Assembly (NCBI GenBank): GCA_964016885.1
Contig: OZ024742.1
Coordinates: 317,192,001 to 317,256,000, forward strand
DNA from: Eledone cirrhosa
Taxonomy: Eukaryota
Direction of reading: 5' to 3'
DNA: 64,000 nt
A program made the position numbers and the translations under genes. The notes beneath the pieces are model-generated. The model did no database searches, was not told where the DNA came from, and worked only from the letters and a program-made list of their open reading frames with translations. This document shows, piece after piece, positions 57,983-64,000 of the stretch. Numbering within the stretch: the first letter of the stretch is position 1; every line of letters starts with the position of its first letter.

Positions 57983-58034
<52 letters not shown>

Positions 58035-58062
58035 TTATATATACATATATATATATATATAT

Positions 58063-58686
58063 AAAAGACGTAAATTAAGAAAATTTTAAAAAATTTAAAA
58101 ATTAACTTACTTACTAAAATTTTCACTCTAACTAATTAGTTTCTGCAATGGGATAAAGACAGTTACGTAATCTAACTGTCGAGAATTCATTGCGTCATCA
58201 GGGAGTCTATTCTCAGCTAAGTCTCCAGGCAATGCGCGGACACTGGGGACTCATATAAAAATAATAATAATTCGTTAGATGGAACAGCTAGCGGGGACTG
58301 GATTCCATGCACTGAAAAGCTCGCTGTCACTGGTCAAATGGCAGATTCTAAAGAATCAATCCCGTGACACTGAGGCTAGTCGGTAGGAGTGGGATGGTAA
58401 TATGACAGAAGCCTACTATCACACCAATAAATTAGTAGTGGTTTTGGCAGGTTTGCTCGACAAATAAATAATTTGGAGATAAATATAGAGAATTTAGTAT
58501 ATCTACTAACATATGCGTACAGATGTACGCTAATGCTAGCAAATACAAAGGTTATGTCATAGTACCTAGGTGGTTCAATGCAGGAGGATGCAGAACAATA
58601 ATATAAAAGACGTAAAATAAGAAAATTTTAAAAAATTTAAAAATTAACCTACTTACTAAAATTTTCACTCCAACTAATTAGTTTCT
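58063..58686 (-). mobile_element. PLE pLTR family C, partial tandem
   Basis: 58063-58144 is repeated at 58605-58686; homologous to 3917-4600. Degenerate HHR CTGATGA..A-CAGTTA-gattacg-TAACTG-TC at ~58157-58203. Confidence 0.75.
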
Positions 58687-58687
58687 A

Positions 58688-58783
<96 letters not shown>

Positions 58784-58955
58784 CAGACGTACAGTAGTAT
58801 GTATATATATACATACATGCACACATATATATATGTACGTATGGTTTTACCGAACATTTATTATAATGCTCGGTTTGTTTGTAAACAAACAGCCCGAATT
58901 ACGCCGTACAGTGTTCAGGCAACCACGTCACCTTTTGTTCGACACTGACACAGGA

Positions 58956-58998
58956 ACGATGTACTAGTTTCAAGCTCATTAGCTATCGCCAGCATCGT
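58956..58998 (-). ncRNA. Minimal hammerhead ribozyme (one core mutation)
   Basis: RC: ACGATG-CTGGCGA-T-AGCT-aatg-AGCT-T-GAAA-CTAG-TA-CATCGT; 6-bp stem I. Confidence 0.75.
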
Positions 58999-59055
58999 AG
59001 ACCTTTCTATCAGATGGTTGAACGTCTGAAAGTATATATATATATGTGTGTGTGT

Positions 59056-59575
59056 GTAGTAATAAACACAGTAATCGTGTGTTTAAAATTACGAGGGTTG
59101 AAAACCACGTTTGTTTGAAATATTTAACCATGAAACCGACAGTGAGTGAAAGTGGCATGAGTGGATTAATTGTAGGGTTTCAGTATGAGTTACTAACTCT
59201 AACTTTTATTTATATTTCGGCTCCCTTCCTAGGTGAGCTTATAAGTTGTGTGTATTAGGCTATTATTTCTAGCCAATCCACTCACGCCACTTTTGGCTTA
59301 CGTCGCAAGAGGTGAAGTATTTATTCATTCGTGTGAATGTTAGCATTAAGTGTTTATCGCATTTAATCTGATTCTCTCGCTCATGATGCCCAAGGATTAT
59401 ATGTTACAAACACACTCAGGGCGAAACAGATTAATCCCTAATCTGTCCAGGAGATGTAATAGTTATTGAGGCGGTTTGTATATTTTTCTGTCTGTTTCAT
59501 GGTTAAATATTTCAAACAAACGTGGTTTTCAACCCTCGTAATTTTAAACACACGATTTACTGTGTTTATTACTAC
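59056..59575. repeat. Inverted repeat, ~81-bp arms (59056-59136, 59494-59575), around an HHR
   Basis: Near-perfect reverse complement; inner IR 59149-59167 / 59275-59293. Confidence 0.9.
59373..59454 (+). ncRNA. Type I hammerhead with full stem III (one core mutation)
   Basis: TCTCTCG-CTCATGA-T-GCCC..GGGC-GAAA-CAGATTA-atccc-TAATCTG-TC-CAGGAGA. Confidence 0.75.
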
Positions 59576-59715
59576 TTATATTATTATTATAATGCTCAGT
59601 ATTTATACATTGAGCTTGTTAATTGCAGGGTTTCAGTATGAGTTACTAACGCTACCTTTTATTTATATATATATATATTAAATGTATAAATTGAGTTAGG
59701 AACTCAAAATAGTCT

Positions 59716-59752
<37 letters not shown>

Positions 59753-59757
<5 letters not shown>

Positions 59758-60037
59758 TATTGAAGTTTGCTTGAAGCATTGTGGAACAATAAGTAAATAT
59801 CTTTAAGTCGTTTGGAAGCCTCGACAATGCAAATGGGTAAATCTCCGGGTAACAAGGTCCGGTGGTGGAGAGAGAGATGTAAGTGGGTGTACGTTGAGAT
59901 GCGTGGTGTGTATAAGATGTGTAGAATGAACGCATCTCAACGTACACCCACTTACATCTCTCTCTCCACCACCGGACCTTGTTACCCGGAGATTTACCCA
60001 TTTGCATTGTCGAGGCTTCCAAACGACTTAAAGATAT
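59753..60037. mobile_element. Family D pLTR-only fold-back (arms 59797-59904, 59930-60037)
   Basis: Homologous to 13017-13195; identical 108-bp arms; (TA)n flanks. Confidence 0.92.
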
Positions 60038-60050
60038 ATATATATATATA

Positions 60051-60162
60051 TAACGAAGGAAATGTGGTAAGGAACTAGATGGACCATAACGCACCAAAGT
60101 ACTCAATACTTAGGGTAGTAGAGTGGGTAATAGGAACGAGTAGGGGTCCTACTCGTTCCTAT
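60051..60162. mobile_element. Family A with 15-bp terminal hairpin (60130-60162)
   Basis: ATAGGAACGAGTAGG-ggt-CCTACTCGTTCCTAT. Confidence 0.85.
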
Positions 60163-60258
60163 ATATATATATATTGAATGTATAAATTGAGTTAGGAACT
60201 CAAAATAGTCTCTTAAAACAAAATAGCTCTAAGAAAGAGATATTTCTGAGCCGTATAT

Positions 60259-60415
60259 TATAATAGAATATAAAAGAAAAGCGAACACAGATATATAGAT
60301 ATATGTGTTCAAATCGTAAGGGACCTGATTCGCCAAGGTGAAAAATCAGGTCCCTTATGATTTGAACACATATATCTATATATCTGTGTTCGCTTTTCTT
60401 TTATATTCTATTATA
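60259..60415. repeat. Fold-back, 72-bp arms (60259-60330, 60344-60415)
   Basis: One mismatch; ends in (TA)n. Confidence 0.92.
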
Positions 60416-60427
60416 TATATATATATA

Positions 60428-60550
60428 AACAAAGAAATTGTGGTAATAAACCAGGTAGACCATAACGCACCAGAGTAGATACTTAGGGTAGTTTGGATCT
60501 ATTTGTCGAAACGGCCGGAGCTCAGCCGTCGGGGTCCTGACTCTTTTCTT
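60428..60550. mobile_element. Family A, two oppositely oriented segments
   Basis: 60428-60491 is minus and ~60498-60550 is plus; (TA)n flanks. Confidence 0.75.
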
Positions 60551-60582
60551 ATATATATAAATATATATAGAAGTAGTAACCA

Positions 60583-61448
60583 AACAGTTAGTTTACCATA
60601 CCGAGAACAATTGTTTCACCTTATGCGGATCTTCAGCTCGGACTGGTCTTGGTTATACGGAACAGGGAGAACAACCGTATGAACGCCCATGCGCAGAAAC
60701 GGTGACTTCACCCAAGCGATACAAAACCACGGTGAAAGGTGTAAGGGAGATAACTGTGAAAGTCCGGAATAAAATGCTCGAGTTGATTAAAAAATTAGAA
60801 TGTTGTTGTTATTCAATCTGGAGCTTTGTAGTTATTCATGAGGTGTTTCCAGACATGTGGACAACGTGAGAAGATTTCATTTCCTGAATTTAGGCAATCG
60901 CCATTCCGTAATCTCCTTAGAATATTTATCATTTCTTCAATACACAGTCCACAAGACGGATTTCCCCTTGCCTATGGCTTCGACTTAGTGATGGCTTTCC
61001 ATTGAATAGAGTAGTCTATACCTGAGTCTTTGGGGGACCATATGTGGCTCAGGAGCTTCGTGGGTGATCGTTTGTCCAGGTATCTAAAGGTCGACTGATG
61101 GTTCAGAAAGCGTTCCTTAAATCGGCTTGAAGCTTGTCCTCTTCAACAGCAATGCAACAGACCCGTTGTAGTGTATGAAGCTGTGGTCACTTCCAACCGA
61201 CCAAATCAACCACAGGAGGTCAAATCCTATGTGGGTATGGCGGAGGGTTAGGGTTAAGTTAGGGTTATATCTTTCGCAGTTACTCCCCTTACACCTTTCC
61301 CCCGTGGTTTTATATCGCTTGGGGGAAGTGACCGTTTCTGCGCAGGCGCGTTCATACGGTTGCTCTTCTTGTTCTGTATAACCATGACCAGTCCGAGCTG
61401 ATCCGCATAAGGTGAAACAATTGTTCTCAGTATGGTGAACTAACTGTT
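60583..61448 (-). mobile_element. PLE family B: split GIY-YIG between inverted pLTRs (60583-60762, 61271-61448)
   Basis: Minus 61124->60813 reads [42 protein letters not shown]; plus 61135-61248 reads [22 protein letters not shown]. Confidence 0.85.
60601..60641 (-). ncRNA. Minimal hammerhead ribozyme, intact core
   Basis: RC: CCGAG-CTGAAGA-T-CC-gcataa-GG-T-GAAA-CAATTG-TT-CTCGG; the mirror copy at 61393-61430 lacks 3 nt of core. Confidence 0.8.
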
Positions 61449-61524
61449 GTGTTTCCATTTCTACCAAACTCGTCCCATGGACTGAGTGCTCTACCACTAC
61501 GGATATTACCTTCCAGTGTTCTAC

Positions 61525-61665
<141 letters not shown>

Positions 61666-63121
61666 CATATTTATATATATGTGAAACCTAAACTATATAT
61701 ACAAATTTGTGTGTATCAGTGTAACGTCAGTCGATTTTCTTTTAACAGTAATTTTGGTTCTGAATTCATTGTTTATATAAATTTCATATAAATATCTTGT
61801 TTTGAAAGTTTGAGATAATAGTGACTGGTTGCCTTGGAATGTTTCTCAATCCGTGACTATGTCATCACATAATGTATAAGTTCAGAAGAGCATTGACAGT
61901 GTATTTAAATATAACTATAGAAAAACAGGAAGCTAAAACTGTGAATGTGTGTATGTGTGTATGCCTACGTGTTTATTTAAATTGTAAGGTGGGAAAAGCA
62001 TAGCATTGAAAGACAGTGTGAGGAAGAGAAATCTTACCAAAGGCGGGAAAGAGTAAAACAATGAGAAAGAAAGTATTGAAGGGAACAGAAATAATAAAAT
62101 GTTCAAAAGAAACAAAAACAATGAATAAATGATTTAAAGAGAACAGAAAAGTAAGACATAAATAAGTAACAAATTGATGAATATAATTTTGTTTAAGAGG
62201 TAAATCTAAACACAAAATAATAATATGAAATCTTACTATTTCTTTTGCTTGTGATTCATTTAATAATTCTTATTGGAATTAAAGAGATTTAATTTACTTG
62301 TATGTTTTGCCTCCGGCATTCTGTGGTGCTTTAGCAATTGTTTAAGTATTATATTTCCCAAAACATATTCCTACTCCCGAACCACACCATGTTTTATAGC
62401 GAGACACACTGTTCTTTGGAGAAGTCGTTACTTTAACGCAGAAAAGTTTTCGCGCTTTTTCCGACATTGTGTGGCTTCCAATTTCACTTGGTGGTATTGC
62501 ACCCACGATATGATAATAAGAATGATGGATCTTCCACTGATTTTTGACGATGAGTATTTAGTTTTTCTGTCAACTGAGCCTCTAACTCATGACTTGATGT
62601 GTAAATGAACAAATATTCTACAGACACTTGTATCTTTTACTTAATTTTCACAAGGCTTATCCTTTGAACTAGAGTATACTCAATGGAATGTTAGGAAAAG
62701 CTGTATCTGTCTATTGAATTTTGTTCTGATACATTGAGTCGGCCCAAGGTGTTACTCACTGGGATCGAAACCGGAACTTTATGATTCGGAAGCGAAATTC
62801 TTAAATATTCAACCATGTTGCGAATGCTCAGCCATTTTCACGTTAATTTAATCTACAACTGAAATAAATATTTTCGAAACTGACGGCTGTCCATTTTCTA
62901 TTTCTCGCGTGTACCTTATTTTACATTTACTTTGTGATATTAGCAATTCTTTCATCACTACTTCGTCAAGTATAGGGAATTCGTTGACTTTGAAGATATC
63001 TGACAATAGAGAAATATGTCCGTTTTCAAAGCTATTATTCAAAGCAATGACTGTGGTTATATTATTCCGGGGCTCTATAGAATAACAATGTCGTATTTCA
63101 TATTTTCCTACAAAATTTATG

Positions 63122-63158
<37 letters not shown>

Positions 63159-63163
<5 letters not shown>

Positions 63164-63381
63164 AAAAAGTATGACCCCGACGGCAGAGCTCAAGCCGTTT
63201 CGACGGCTATTTCTGGACGACAGTTAGTTTACCATACTGAGAACAGTCCAGAAATAGCCGTCGAAACGGCTTGAGCTCTGCCGTCGGGGTCATACTTTTT
63301 CCTATTTTCCACTCTACTACCCTAAGTATTGAGTACTCTGGTGCGTTATGGTCCATCTGGTTCCTTACCACAATTCCTTTG

Positions 63382-63383
<2 letters not shown>
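63159..63383. mobile_element. Family A fold-back, perfect 60-bp arms (63159-63218, 63246-63305)
   Basis: 27-nt loop derived from family B; (TA)n on both sides. Confidence 0.9.
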
Positions 63384-63418
<35 letters not shown>

Positions 63419-63446
63419 TATGTGTGTGTGTGTGTGTGTGTGTATT

Positions 63447-63515
<69 letters not shown>

Positions 63516-63518
<3 letters not shown>

Positions 63519-64000
63519 TGGCTGCCAACTCGTTTTCGAGTACGGCCACTACTTTATATCCATGTAGGAGAACCCCTACCGATACGCTGAACCAGTGTGA
63601 CTTTTTAGTCCAGCCAGTGACTTGAAAATTCTGGTACAAACACTACACTTGTGACAATTATTGACACATAGTGCTCGGCCCATGGTACCATGTGACGACA
63701 AGTGCAGAGAGATCTCCAGATATAAAGCAATGCCTGTGCCGTGAAGCTTTTATTGTGAGCAAAGGCACTGCACAAAGCCAGTCCCACTCTCTTAACCAAG
63801 ATGATATTTACCAAAATGTAGAACAAGTCAACATCATTGGATACCATCAGGGTTGCAGGTATTATATCAGAGTTTTCCTTCTCCTAGAATTCTGCCTTGA
63901 CAAAGGCTAAGGGGTCATCTCTCCCGGTGATTTTGGATGGCCATTGACTCTTAAGAGCTCCTTTGCATTTTGACAGGTTTTGTTTTTAGTCCTGCAGGAT
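63516..64000 (-). mobile_element. Possible RTE-like LINE 5' region
   Basis: RC contains ctaggagaaggaaaactctga, recalled from RTE 5' regions; GC content above the flanks. Confidence 0.3.

What the first reader, a model, noticed from the sequence alone, without database searches (positions are those of the whole stretch)
60583..61448. GIY-YIG gene split by a twin-priming-like inversion and capped by TTAGGG repeats
Seen: the N-half (CPL..VVY..YVGMAEG, + strand 61135-61248) and C-half (RFKERFLNH.., - strand from ~61124) rejoin as YVGMAEG-RFKER with little or no loss. The free end of the inverted piece runs straight into AGGGTTAGGGTTAAGTTAGGGTTA (61244-61267), then a diverged inverted pLTR. Established: this geometry matches L1 twin priming; TTAGGG is the mollusc telomere repeat; PLE RTs are the sister group of telomerase. 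Inference: telomerase healed an integration intermediate at GAGGG microhomology, or a telomeric repeat primed the internal cDNA.
Basis: partly seen in the sequence, partly recalled or inferred. Interest (0 to 1): 0.75.

Follow-up and report, generated by a model that had tools for sequence, protein, structure and literature searches.

The report
Palindromic retroelement copy with telomere-repeat patch
A dead, truncated copy of a Penelope-like jumping gene lies folded back on itself inside a TA repeat, and a 23-base telomere-like stretch sits where about 360 bases are missing, likely a break that telomerase patched; two other copies in the genome carry the same kind of patch, so it is a rare, repeatable by-product and not a new mechanism.

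Summary
In 26 of 28 other copies the 'N-half' and 'C-half' are colinear (YVGMAEG|RFKER). In the window they face each other with at most 1-2 shared bases. A 23-nt run, TTAGGGTTAAGTTAGGGTTATAT (61248-61270), follows the N-half, and a second 3' arm in inverted orientation follows that.

[quoted passage not shown] It is about 2.5 kb long, targets (TA)n and has thousands of copies.

The 'inversion' is better read as the family's usual head-to-head (fold-back, self-primed) insertion. The arms are element positions 1930-2479 and the N-half is the 119-123-nt spacer. About 360 nt of the spacer-linked arm were later lost, and the telomere-like filler replaced them.

The filler is absent from a full-length copy and from 29 other loci. 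The junction is unique in the genome. However, two other loci (L085, L086) have TTAGGG fillers exactly at head-to-head junctions. All three follow 3-5 nt that are in register with the repeat, which is the signature described for telomerase-mediated break repair. The frequency is low: 3 of 9,123 anchored copies, and 0 in their 3' flanks.

Twin priming is only partly supported. Telomerase-type healing is plausible but unproven.

The parts
60550..60569 (.). (TA)n microsatellite, left target flank
   Evidence: Sequence read directly. Other copies of the family also end in (TA)n or (CT)n.
60570..61126 (-). Arm 1: 3' part of the element, sense on the - strand (positions 1929-2479 of the full-length copy ref47). 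It holds the nuclease C-half (RFKER...), a frameshifted rest of the ORF and the 3' UTR. Read here as the fold-back copy.
   Evidence: BLAST to the full-length natural copy L047; 90-92% identity to 28 other copies; ORFs; alignment.
61125..61247 (+). 'N-half': element positions 1811-1929, sense on the + strand (linker cysteines, the GIY and YIG strands, ending ...YVGMAEG). Read here as the spacer (loop) of the palindrome.
   Evidence: 87-95% identical to the colinear N-half of most of the 26 colinear copies; 79% in L017.
61248..61270 (+). Telomere-like filler TTAGGGTTAAGTTAGGGTTATAT, in register with the preceding AGGG. It replaces about 360 nt (ref47 1930-2287).
   Evidence: (the 20-mer junction has its only exact match in the window; 5 further matches with 2 mismatches against 29 for the control).
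61271..61452 (+). Arm 2 remnant: the last ~185 nt of the element (ref47 2288-2472), sense on the + strand. It is the inverted partner of 60570-60760 (88% identity).
61453..61528 (+). Short link plus 'tail'. 61476-61528 is the reverse complement of the first 56 nt of a full-length copy. This is the optional PLE tail, present at one end only.
   Evidence: The tail is described in passages of PMC8557442 and PMC3846280.
61529..61680 (.). (CT)n(TA)n microsatellite, right target flank

Best explanation
This is one 5'-truncated, decayed insertion of a Hydra-type Penelope-like retroelement in a (TA)n microsatellite that likely arose as a fold-back (self-primed) palindrome and was likely broken later at the spacer/arm boundary, with the exposed ...GGAGGG 3' end predicted to have been extended by telomerase with about three TTAGGG repeats before rejoining, at the cost of about 360 bases. 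Shown directly: the anatomy is [arm 1, antisense 1929-2479][1811-1929 sense][23-nt telomere-like filler][2288-2472 sense][tail], set between microsatellite flanks. The two nuclease halves are colinear in other copies. The filler is foreign to the element and its junction is unique in the genome. Head-to-head pairs are a mass feature of the family. Two other loci have TTAGGG fillers exactly at such junctions, each preceded by bases in register with the repeat. Inferred, step 1: reverse transcription from the RNA 3' end reached position about 1811. The cDNA 3' end then folded back, paired by GGC/GCC at about 1930, and copied itself. This gave 550-nt inverted arms around a 119-123-nt spacer, the 'N-half', which therefore abuts the other arm's 'C-half' by construction. 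Inferred, step 2: the long palindrome was cut at the 3' edge of the spacer, either as a hairpin or cruciform or as a late integration intermediate. Inferred, step 3: the + strand end ...GGAGGG-3' was extended with G-strand repeats. Inferred, step 4: this end was joined to the other end, which had been resected to position 2288. The nuclease gene itself does nothing here, because the copy is frameshifted and truncated.
For: Family and structure. There is a natural full-length copy of 2,479 nt with an RT and a C-terminal nuclease. 5' ends vary between copies. 19 of 39 distinct loci have an inverted arm or segment at the 5' end. 1,213 head-to-head pairs have both 15-nt anchors exact, against 0 for the control. 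In 15 of 15 sampled pairs the centre is a perfect palindrome or contiguous element sequence, with no foreign filler. In 20 further anchor loci the fillers derive from the element or the tail. In 4 of 5 other pairs the two arms rank among each other's closest relatives (ranks 1-3, and 9 in one direction, of 40), as expected if one arm is copied from the other. L002 and L004 have the same layout, with spacer-linked arms that carry 315-nt and 399-nt internal deletions starting 57 and 76 nt from the spacer. The fold-back junction has 3 nt of GGC/GCC microhomology. Passages of PMC3846280 already read PLE palindromic junctions as self-priming. Filler. It is absent from the element and its junction is unique. 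A search for the telomeric 13-mer within 300 nt upstream of the anchor gives 3 loci against 0 for the control, and all three sit exactly at the junction. The C-strand search finds only the second arm of L085. There are 0 telomeric 13-mers within 200 nt downstream of the 9,123 anchors, on either strand. The in-register bases before the G-strand run are AGGG (window), GGTTA (L085) and GTT (L086). PMC2246262 (passages) gives 1-8 in-register nt as the mark of telomerase at break sites, with chance at or below 1.56% for 3 or more and at or below 0.39% for 4 or more. In the window and in L086 the extended 3' end only exists after the palindrome has formed. In the window it is a sense-strand end at the spacer edge. 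In L086 the arm to the left of the filler is 22 nt and the arm to the right is 67 nt. This places the repeat addition after the fold-back.
Against: The window's two arms are no closer to each other than random copies are (0.868 identity over 149 columns; ranks 34 and 31 of 40; between-locus mean 0.898). The differences are mostly private to one arm, which fits old age but gives no positive sign of a common origin. There is no empty or pre-deletion allele, and no relative's genome was available. Public read sets did not bridge the filler. Telomerase cannot be told apart from other microhomology-guided routes, such as an RT switching to a C-rich template or capture of a telomeric DNA fragment. 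The filler is imperfect: about 2 changes in the first 17-18 nt, and the last TTATAT may not be telomeric. The event is very rare (3 of 9,123 anchors; 1 of at least 1,213 pairs), so the enrichment estimate rests on three loci. The break at the spacer edge is inferred from a single locus.
Confidence: 0.5

Rival explanations
1. Twin priming. One target 3' end primes at the RNA 3' end and copies up to position 1930. A second DNA end that terminates in C-strand telomeric repeats (...CCCTAACCCT-3') anneals to AGGG at position 1929 and copies 1929 to 1811. The two cDNAs are then joined.
For: The geometry fits an in-place inversion with 0-2 nt of overlap. There are 4 nt of AGGG/CCCT microhomology at the proposed priming site. 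L002 and L004 have an internal inverted segment that overlaps the main copy's 5' end by 57 and 76 nt.
Against: It needs an extra, separately primed 3' arm, and it needs C-strand repeats added to that arm's cDNA end, where there is no microhomology (...GCGAAAG|ATATAACCC). Telomerase does not make the C strand. It does not explain L086. It does not explain why the family's pairs are palindromes, with or without a spacer of contiguous element sequence. In 4 of 5 other pairs the arms rank among each other's nearest relatives.
Confidence: 0.12
2. The structure is the same fold-back palindrome, but telomerase did not make the repeats. Instead the element's own reverse transcriptase, or a repair polymerase, switched to a C-rich template such as telomerase RNA, a telomeric transcript or DNA fragment, or the element's own CUAACCCUA.
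For: In-register microhomology fits any template switch. Other junction fillers in the family are templated snippets. The element's sense strand carries CTAACCCTA at position 555, kept in 9 of 14 copies, and CTAACCCT in 11 of 14. PLE RTs are the sister group of TERT (PMC8557442 abstract). Telomerase-RNA retrotranscription at breaks is described in PMC2246262 (abstract and passages).
Against: None of the three fillers carries bases from beside the internal CTAACCCTA. A 9-mer of this kind is expected by chance in roughly 6% of 2.5-kb sequences (my estimate), and here it is held in place by coding (K-A-N-P). No telomerase RNA of this organism is known to me, so fillers derived from it cannot be recognised.
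Confidence: 0.15
3. A short telomere-like tract already lay in the (TA)n target, and two independent truncated insertions landed on either side of it in opposite orientations.
For: The filler ends in TTATAT next to arm 2, which resembles the TA target. The two arms are no more alike than random copies. The genome holds many interstitial TTAGGG tracts.
Against: There are 0 telomeric 13-mers in the 3' flanks of 9,123 anchors. 0 of 7 distinct interstitial TTAGGG loci have the element within 1.5 kb. The same arrangement would have to arise three times. The exact abutment of the two nuclease halves would then be a coincidence.
Confidence: 0.06
4. The arm order or the filler is an assembly artefact of a palindromic repeat.
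For: PLE tandem and inverted structures are said to trouble assemblies (PMC8557442 passage). No public contig bridges 61253-61285.
Against: The arms are only 88% identical, so they are not collapsible. Locus-specific contigs with 0-1 differences cover 60674-60787, 60855-60936 and 61009-61109. The tool states that human-like (telomeric) contigs are dropped, which explains the hole. Two other loci show the same kind of filler.
Confidence: 0.03

Closest known systems
Hydra clade of Penelope-like elements (Craig et al. 2021, PMC8557442; section 11 read whole)
   Same: C-terminal nuclease after the RT. Short full length (2,479 nt). CxCX5C linker (C11-P-C13-RKPEA-C19). No cysteines between the GIY and YIG strands. 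CxxC (CGLC in L003 and the window) and CxH (CPH) near the conserved E and N. DKT present (L047). Insertion into (TA)n. Inverted 5' arms and a one-sided tail.
   Different: RWR where the paper names RWK. No hammerhead found by Rfam, whereas the paper reports canonical ones; a CUGANGA...GAAAC motif is visible by eye only. The tail is about 55 nt here, not 30-40. No Repbase Hydra sequence was available for a tree, and the paper's supplements S1, S2 and S7 were not read.
Inverted pLTRs with palindromic junctions in Penelope elements, read as self-priming (Arkhipova et al. 2013, PMC3846280; passages)
   Same: Head-to-head arms, palindromes at the inverted junction, an optional tail, and microhomology at junctions.
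   Different: That paper discusses self-priming on an antisense template. Here a fold-back of the cDNA itself suffices. Neither the spacer-linked deletions nor telomeric fillers are described in the passages I read.
Insertion of short telomeric tracts at double-strand breaks by telomerase (Nergadze et al. 2007, PMC2246262; passages)
   Same: A short (TTAGGG)n insert at a repaired break, sometimes with a deletion, preceded by 1-8 nt in register with the repeat.
   Different: That work concerns mammals and is proven by empty orthologous sites. Here the host is an invertebrate-type genome, there is no empty site, and the break lies inside a retroelement palindrome.
L1 twin priming (Ostertag and Kazazian 2001; not read, known from the citing passage in PMC2246262, and from recall)
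   Same: An inverted 5' piece that is contiguous in the element with the sense 3' piece, joined by microhomology.
   Different: Twin priming does not duplicate the 3' end. Here there are two 3' arms and the 'inverted piece' is linked to one of them.
Endonuclease-deficient PLEs (Athena, Coprina) at telomeres (passages of PMC3846280 and PMC8557442)
   Same: Telomeric repeats are added to the truncated 5' end of a PLE copy.
   Different: Those elements lack the nuclease, sit at chromosome ends and carry reverse-complement telomeric repeats at their 3' ends. This family has the nuclease, is interstitial and has no such repeats.

Membership tests
Penelope-like elements, Hydra clade | RT followed by a C-terminal GIY-YIG nuclease in one ORF, element under 3 kb | tested here: met
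   L046 has a 638-aa open frame and L047 has two frames of 303 and 389 aa that cover the RT motifs (FTQFDIVDFYPSI, YRDDG) and then the nuclease. The full-length copy is 2,479 nt.
Penelope-like elements, Hydra clade | Linker CxCX5C; no CCHH cysteines between GIY and YIG; CxxC and CxH near the conserved E and N; DKT in place of DKG | tested here: met
   Translations compared with the text of section 11 of PMC8557442. C11, C19, C25, Y32, Y50 and G52 are invariant in 50 sequences. The paper's alignment figures (supplements) were not seen.
Penelope-like elements, Hydra clade | Insertion into (TA)n; inverted 5'-truncated copy; one-sided tail | tested here: met
   Flanks of 28 copies; 19 of 39 loci have an inverted arm; tail.
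Penelope-like elements, Hydra clade | Canonical hammerhead ribozyme in the terminal repeat | tested here: inconclusive
   Rfam finds no hammerhead at E up to 1 in window 58000-64000 or at E up to 10 in L003 1940-2060. A CUGA(A/G/U)GA...GAAAC-AAUU-G motif is conserved across copies, but I read it by eye against a recalled consensus.
Penelope-like elements, Hydra clade | Placement in an RT phylogeny with named Hydra families | not testable with these tools
   No Repbase sequences are held. The nearest named homologues are from a stony coral, a phylum in which the clade is reported.
GIY-YIG nuclease superfamily | Sequence match to the family profile | tested here: inconclusive
   Pfam gives no hit for the window pieces, the L003 frame or the L022 frames. 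2 of 50 aligned homologues hit PF01541 (best E 0.0013) and 2 of 50 hit RVT_1. In the protein atlas, 12 of 30 named hits are in clusters where 22% of members carry PF01541. A PDB profile search finds nothing relevant.
GIY-YIG nuclease superfamily | Fold: GIY and YIG strands as a beta-hairpin, then helices, a third strand and a helix | tested here: inconclusive
L1-type twin-priming inversion | Inverted 5' segment contiguous with the sense 3' segment, with small overlap or loss | tested here: met
L1-type twin-priming inversion | One RNA copied once: no duplicated 3' end; the inverted piece abuts the target flank | tested here: not met
   A second 3' arm (61271-61452) plus tail lies beyond the inverted piece.
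Telomerase-mediated telomeric insertion at a break | 3' end of the break in register with the inserted repeats | tested here: met
   AGGG (4 nt) in the window, GGTTA (5 nt) in L085 and GTT (3 nt) in L086, judged against colinear copies.
Telomerase-mediated telomeric insertion at a break | Ancestral empty site without the repeats | not testable with these tools
   No relative's genome is held. Other copies of the element serve only as a proxy for the unbroken sequence.

The most novel reading that the evidence does not exclude
The Penelope-like RNP itself makes the telomere repeats. Its RT, the sister of telomerase RT, uses the conserved CUAACCCUA in its own RNA (a 1.5-repeat, telomerase-template-like word) to extend stalled G-ending 3' ends reiteratively. 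An endonuclease-bearing PLE would thus retain a latent telomerase-like activity.
Probability: 0.05. Interest if true: 0.85.

Novelty: new variant of a known kind. Interest (0 to 1): 0.4.

Why it matters
The way Penelope-like elements integrate is unresolved, and their inverted repeats and tails are described but not explained. This genome offers thousands of head-to-head copies whose centres look like fold-backs, plus a few long palindromes with spacer-linked deletions. Three junctions were patched with telomere repeats in register with the broken end. If the reading holds, it shows two things. First, the exact fit of split halves in such copies is a by-product of fold-back synthesis and not an inversion. 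Second, free 3' ends at these palindromes are occasionally accessible to telomerase-type synthesis in an invertebrate germ line. That would extend the break-healing origin of short interstitial telomeric tracts beyond the vertebrates covered in the titles and passages I saw, and would link it to the relatives of telomerase. I found no paper describing telomeric fillers at junctions of endonuclease-bearing PLEs. This rests on three searches whose listings I judged by title and abstract: 11 papers hold the terms, 10 listed; 10, 9 listed; 5.

Tried and rejected
- Rfam search for hammerheads: nothing found.
- Pfam on the window pieces and on natural ORFs: no relevant hit.
- Homologue search among longer proteins: none found.
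- PDB profile search: one irrelevant weak hit.
- Public reads: only short contigs dominated by other copies. The bin 61253-61285 has no cover in any of 4 runs, so the filler junction is neither confirmed nor refuted. Locus-specific contigs do cover three unique stretches to its left.
- Scaffold ends: 0 of 6 hold TTAGGG, so the repeat's telomeric role could not be shown from this assembly.
- Arm-to-arm identity as a test of one event against two: undecided for the window.
- L105: a telomeric 13-mer near a copy, but it lies inside a different repeat and not at a junction, so I did not count it.
- The 5 near-matches to the junction 20-mer: fewer than the control gives (29), and none has the element nearby.
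- In-frame TGA of L003 considered as selenocysteine: rejected, because other copies have CGA or CGT there, so it is CpG decay.
- 'Short 820-nt nuclease-only element': rejected once a second reference showed that L003 is simply truncated.
- Earlier scan notes: none on this kind of junction.

Full report
WHAT IS THERE. Between two microsatellite flanks, (TA)n at 60550-60569 and (CT)n(TA)n from 61529, the + strand reads as follows:
- 60570-61126: the last ~555 nt of a retroelement in antisense.
- 61125-61247: 123 nt of the same element in sense.
- 61248-61270: TTAGGGTTAAGTTAGGGTTATAT.
- 61271-61452: the last ~185 nt of the element in sense.
- 61453-61528: a short link plus a ~55-nt 'tail'.

The inverted arms are 88-89% identical.

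THE TWO HALVES BELONG TOGETHER. An own-genome search with 60583-61448 scored 40 of 5,365 candidates. In 26 of 28 other loci the 123-nt piece is colinear with the 544-nt piece. The other 2 loci are truncated near that point. L003 reads ...[21 protein letters not shown]... without a break. The alignment shows no loss and at most 1-2 shared bases at both junctions.

WHAT THE ELEMENT IS. My first reference (L003) made the family look like an 820-nt unit. A second reference (L022) showed variable 5' ends and an RT upstream. A protein search with the RT part found 18,777 candidates, of which 150 were scored, with open frames up to 693 aa. L047 holds a natural full-length copy of 2,479 nt between (TA)n tracts, and I used it as a coordinate ruler ('ref47'). 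The text of Craig et al. 2021 (PMC8557442; abstract, passages, and section 11 read whole) lists the traits of the Hydra clade:
- a C-terminal nuclease and a length under 3 kb;
- a CxCX5C linker and no CCHH between GIY and YIG;
- CxxC and CxH motifs, and DKT;
- (TA)n targets.

All of these are met here. RWR stands where the paper names RWK. Rfam finds no hammerhead. The supplements with the clade alignments were not read.

The nuclease identity is only weakly supported by sequence. Pfam gives no hit for the query. 2 of 50 homologues hit GIY-YIG and 2 of 50 hit RVT_1. An atlas lead also points to GIY-YIG. A confident model (pLDDT 91.7) has the expected order of strands and helices. Its only nuclease-like matches are weak rows for T4 EndoII and I-TevI.

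HEAD-TO-HEAD COPIES ARE THE RULE. In ref47 coordinates the window is [- 1929-2479][+ 1811-1929][filler][+ 2288-2472][tail].
- 19 of 39 distinct loci have an inverted arm or segment at the 5' end.
- Genome-wide, 9,123 exact copies of a 15-nt anchor near the 3' end exist, against 23 for the control.
- 1,213 head-to-head pairs have both anchors within 300 nt of each other, against 0 for the control.
- In 15 of 15 sampled pairs the centre is a perfect palindrome, or one arm simply runs on for some bases to form a spacer of contiguous element sequence.
- In 20 further anchor loci the junction fillers derive from the element or the tail.
- In 4 of 5 other pairs the two arms rank among each other's closest relatives.

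This is what a fold-back of the nascent cDNA on itself gives. Passages of PMC3846280 already read such palindromes as self-priming, and PMC8557442 describes the inverted 5' copy and the one-sided tail as standard.

RE-READING THE 'INVERSION'. Suppose the cDNA reached about position 1811, folded back and primed at about 1930. The junction shows GGC/GCC microhomology. The product would then be [antisense 1930-2479][1811-1929][1930-2479]. The 'N-half' is the spacer, and it abuts the other arm's 'C-half' by construction, so the exact fit needs no twin priming. The window differs from this product only in one respect: positions 1930-2287 of the spacer-linked arm are missing and the 23-nt filler stands in their place.

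L002 and L004 are independent events with different breakpoints and the same layout. Their spacers are 160 and 68 nt, and internal deletions of 315 and 399 nt start 57 and 76 nt from the spacer, without filler. Twin priming on one RNA would not give a second 3' arm.

THE FILLER.
- The element has no TTAGGG or CCCTAA hexamer, and 29 other loci (103 kb) have no TTAGGGTTA.
- The junction 20-mer is unique. Five matches with 2 mismatches compare with 29 for the control, and none of them lies near the element.
- Other junction fillers of 13-36 nt in the family are snap-back or element-derived snippets.
- (TTAGGG)3 is very common in the genome (163,447 matches against 0), but 0 of 7 distinct tracts examined lie near the element.

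The enrichment test gave the following.
- The G-strand 13-mer within 300 nt upstream of the anchor: 3 loci against 0 for the control.
- The C-strand 13-mer: only the second arm of one of those loci.
- A second anchor: the same two junction loci, plus one non-junction case inside another repeat.
- Between paired anchors: 1 of at least 1,213 pairs.
- Within 200 nt downstream of the anchors, on either strand: 0.

Both new loci have the filler exactly at the head-to-head junction:
- L085: [antisense 2396-2479][GGTTTAGGGTTAGGGTTAATGTTAG][sense 2397-2470 + tail].
- L086: [tail + 22-nt antisense arm][AGGGTTAGGGTTAGGG][sense 2413-2479].

In each case the outer flanks are microsatellite. A pre-existing tract would therefore need two independent, opposed insertions, three times over.

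POLARITY AND TIMING. In all three loci the G strand follows an element end whose last bases are in register with the repeat: AGGG, GGTTA and GTT. The far side has 0-2 nt. Nergadze et al. 2007 (PMC2246262; passages) use exactly this signature to implicate telomerase in the insertion of short telomeric tracts at breaks, with chance at or below 1.56% for 3 nt or more.

In the window the extended end ...GGAGGG-3' is on the sense strand at the 3' edge of the spacer. In L086 the arm to the left of the filler (22 nt) is shorter than the arm to its right (67 nt). Neither end exists before the fold-back, so the repeats were added to a break in, or a late intermediate of, the finished palindrome. That break lay at its centre or at its spacer edge, and one side was resected. 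L085 alone would also fit addition before the fold-back. The choice of enzyme is an inference. It could be telomerase, the element's RT on a C-rich template, or capture of a telomeric fragment.

LIMITS.
- The window's arms are no more alike than random copies (0.868; ranks 34 and 31 of 40), and their differences are mostly private. This is compatible with an old single event but gives no positive evidence for one.
- No empty site or relative's genome was available.
- Public contigs do not bridge the filler.
- Scaffold ends lack TTAGGG.
- My estimate of how much non-element sequence lies at 5' ends, and hence of the fold enrichment, is rough. The firm numbers are 3 junction cases among 9,123 anchors and 0 in the 3' flanks.

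VERDICT. The finding is a real, decayed copy of a known kind of element in its usual head-to-head form. The striking 'split and rejoin' is explained by fold-back synthesis plus a deletion. The telomere-like patch is a rare but recurrent feature. It is most simply read as telomerase-type healing of a broken palindrome, a known repair route that I did not find reported for endonuclease-bearing Penelope-like elements.

Noticed in passing
window 61476-61528; L047 3962-3907 (- strand); many loci: The optional PLE 'tail' of this family is the reverse complement of the first ~56 nt of a full-length copy. It appears at one end of an insertion only, sometimes in the middle of a head-to-head junction (L113; a pair at C1:174906342), and in forward orientation directly upstream of some truncated copies (L026).
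   Followed up: partly
L047, position 555 of the full-length copy; 14 copies: The RT-coding region carries CTAACCCTA (codons K-A-N-P), a word like a 1.5-repeat telomerase template. It is kept in 9 of 14 copies, and CTAACCCT in 11 of 14. It may be chance plus coding constraint.
   Followed up: partly
window 60590-60640 (- strand) and 61395-61435; L003 1985-2030: A CUGA(A/G/U)GA ... GAAAC-AAUU-G-UU/CUCGG motif resembling a minimal type I hammerhead with a palindromic loop is conserved near the 3' end across subfamilies, with the N position varying. Rfam does not recognise it. The right-arm copy in the window has lost about three bases (AGA) of the CUGANGA box.
   Followed up: partly
window 60060-60170, 60420-60545, about 63190-63330; L105 1320-1545: A second short repeat with long hairpins also sits in (TA)n tracts; it may be a non-autonomous partner. 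In L105 about 9 nt of its interior are replaced so that it reads TTAGGGTTAGGGTTAG.
   Followed up: no
L054 and L080 (C1:3.23 Mb and 21.99 Mb): Two interstitial (TTAGGG)n tracts share the same flanks (..GTGGTTGGG[TTAGGG]nTTAGGAAGGGCATC.AGCTGTA..). Some tracts therefore belong to a dispersed repeat that carries an internal telomere-like array.
   Followed up: no
L003 1374-1376: An in-frame TGA lies inside the CxCX5C linker. Other copies have CGA or CGT (Arg) there, so this is CpG decay and not selenocysteine.
   Followed up: yes
L036 and L037 (C1:205.21 Mb and 205.55 Mb): The two loci have identical composite structures and identical HSP coordinates. The same pairing shows for C1:205,216,107 and 205,555,481. 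This looks like a segmental duplication about 340 kb apart.
   Followed up: no
L014, L018: Two other copies are 5'-truncated within about 20 nt of the window's breakpoint (ref47 1933 and 1912). This may be a preferred stop or fold-back region near GGAGGG.
   Followed up: no
C1, C3, C4 scaffold ends (L107-L112): None of the 6 ends examined holds TTAGGG. Three end in other satellites (about 20-40-nt units), and one (the end of C1) ends in a copy of this element's 3' region.
   Followed up: partly
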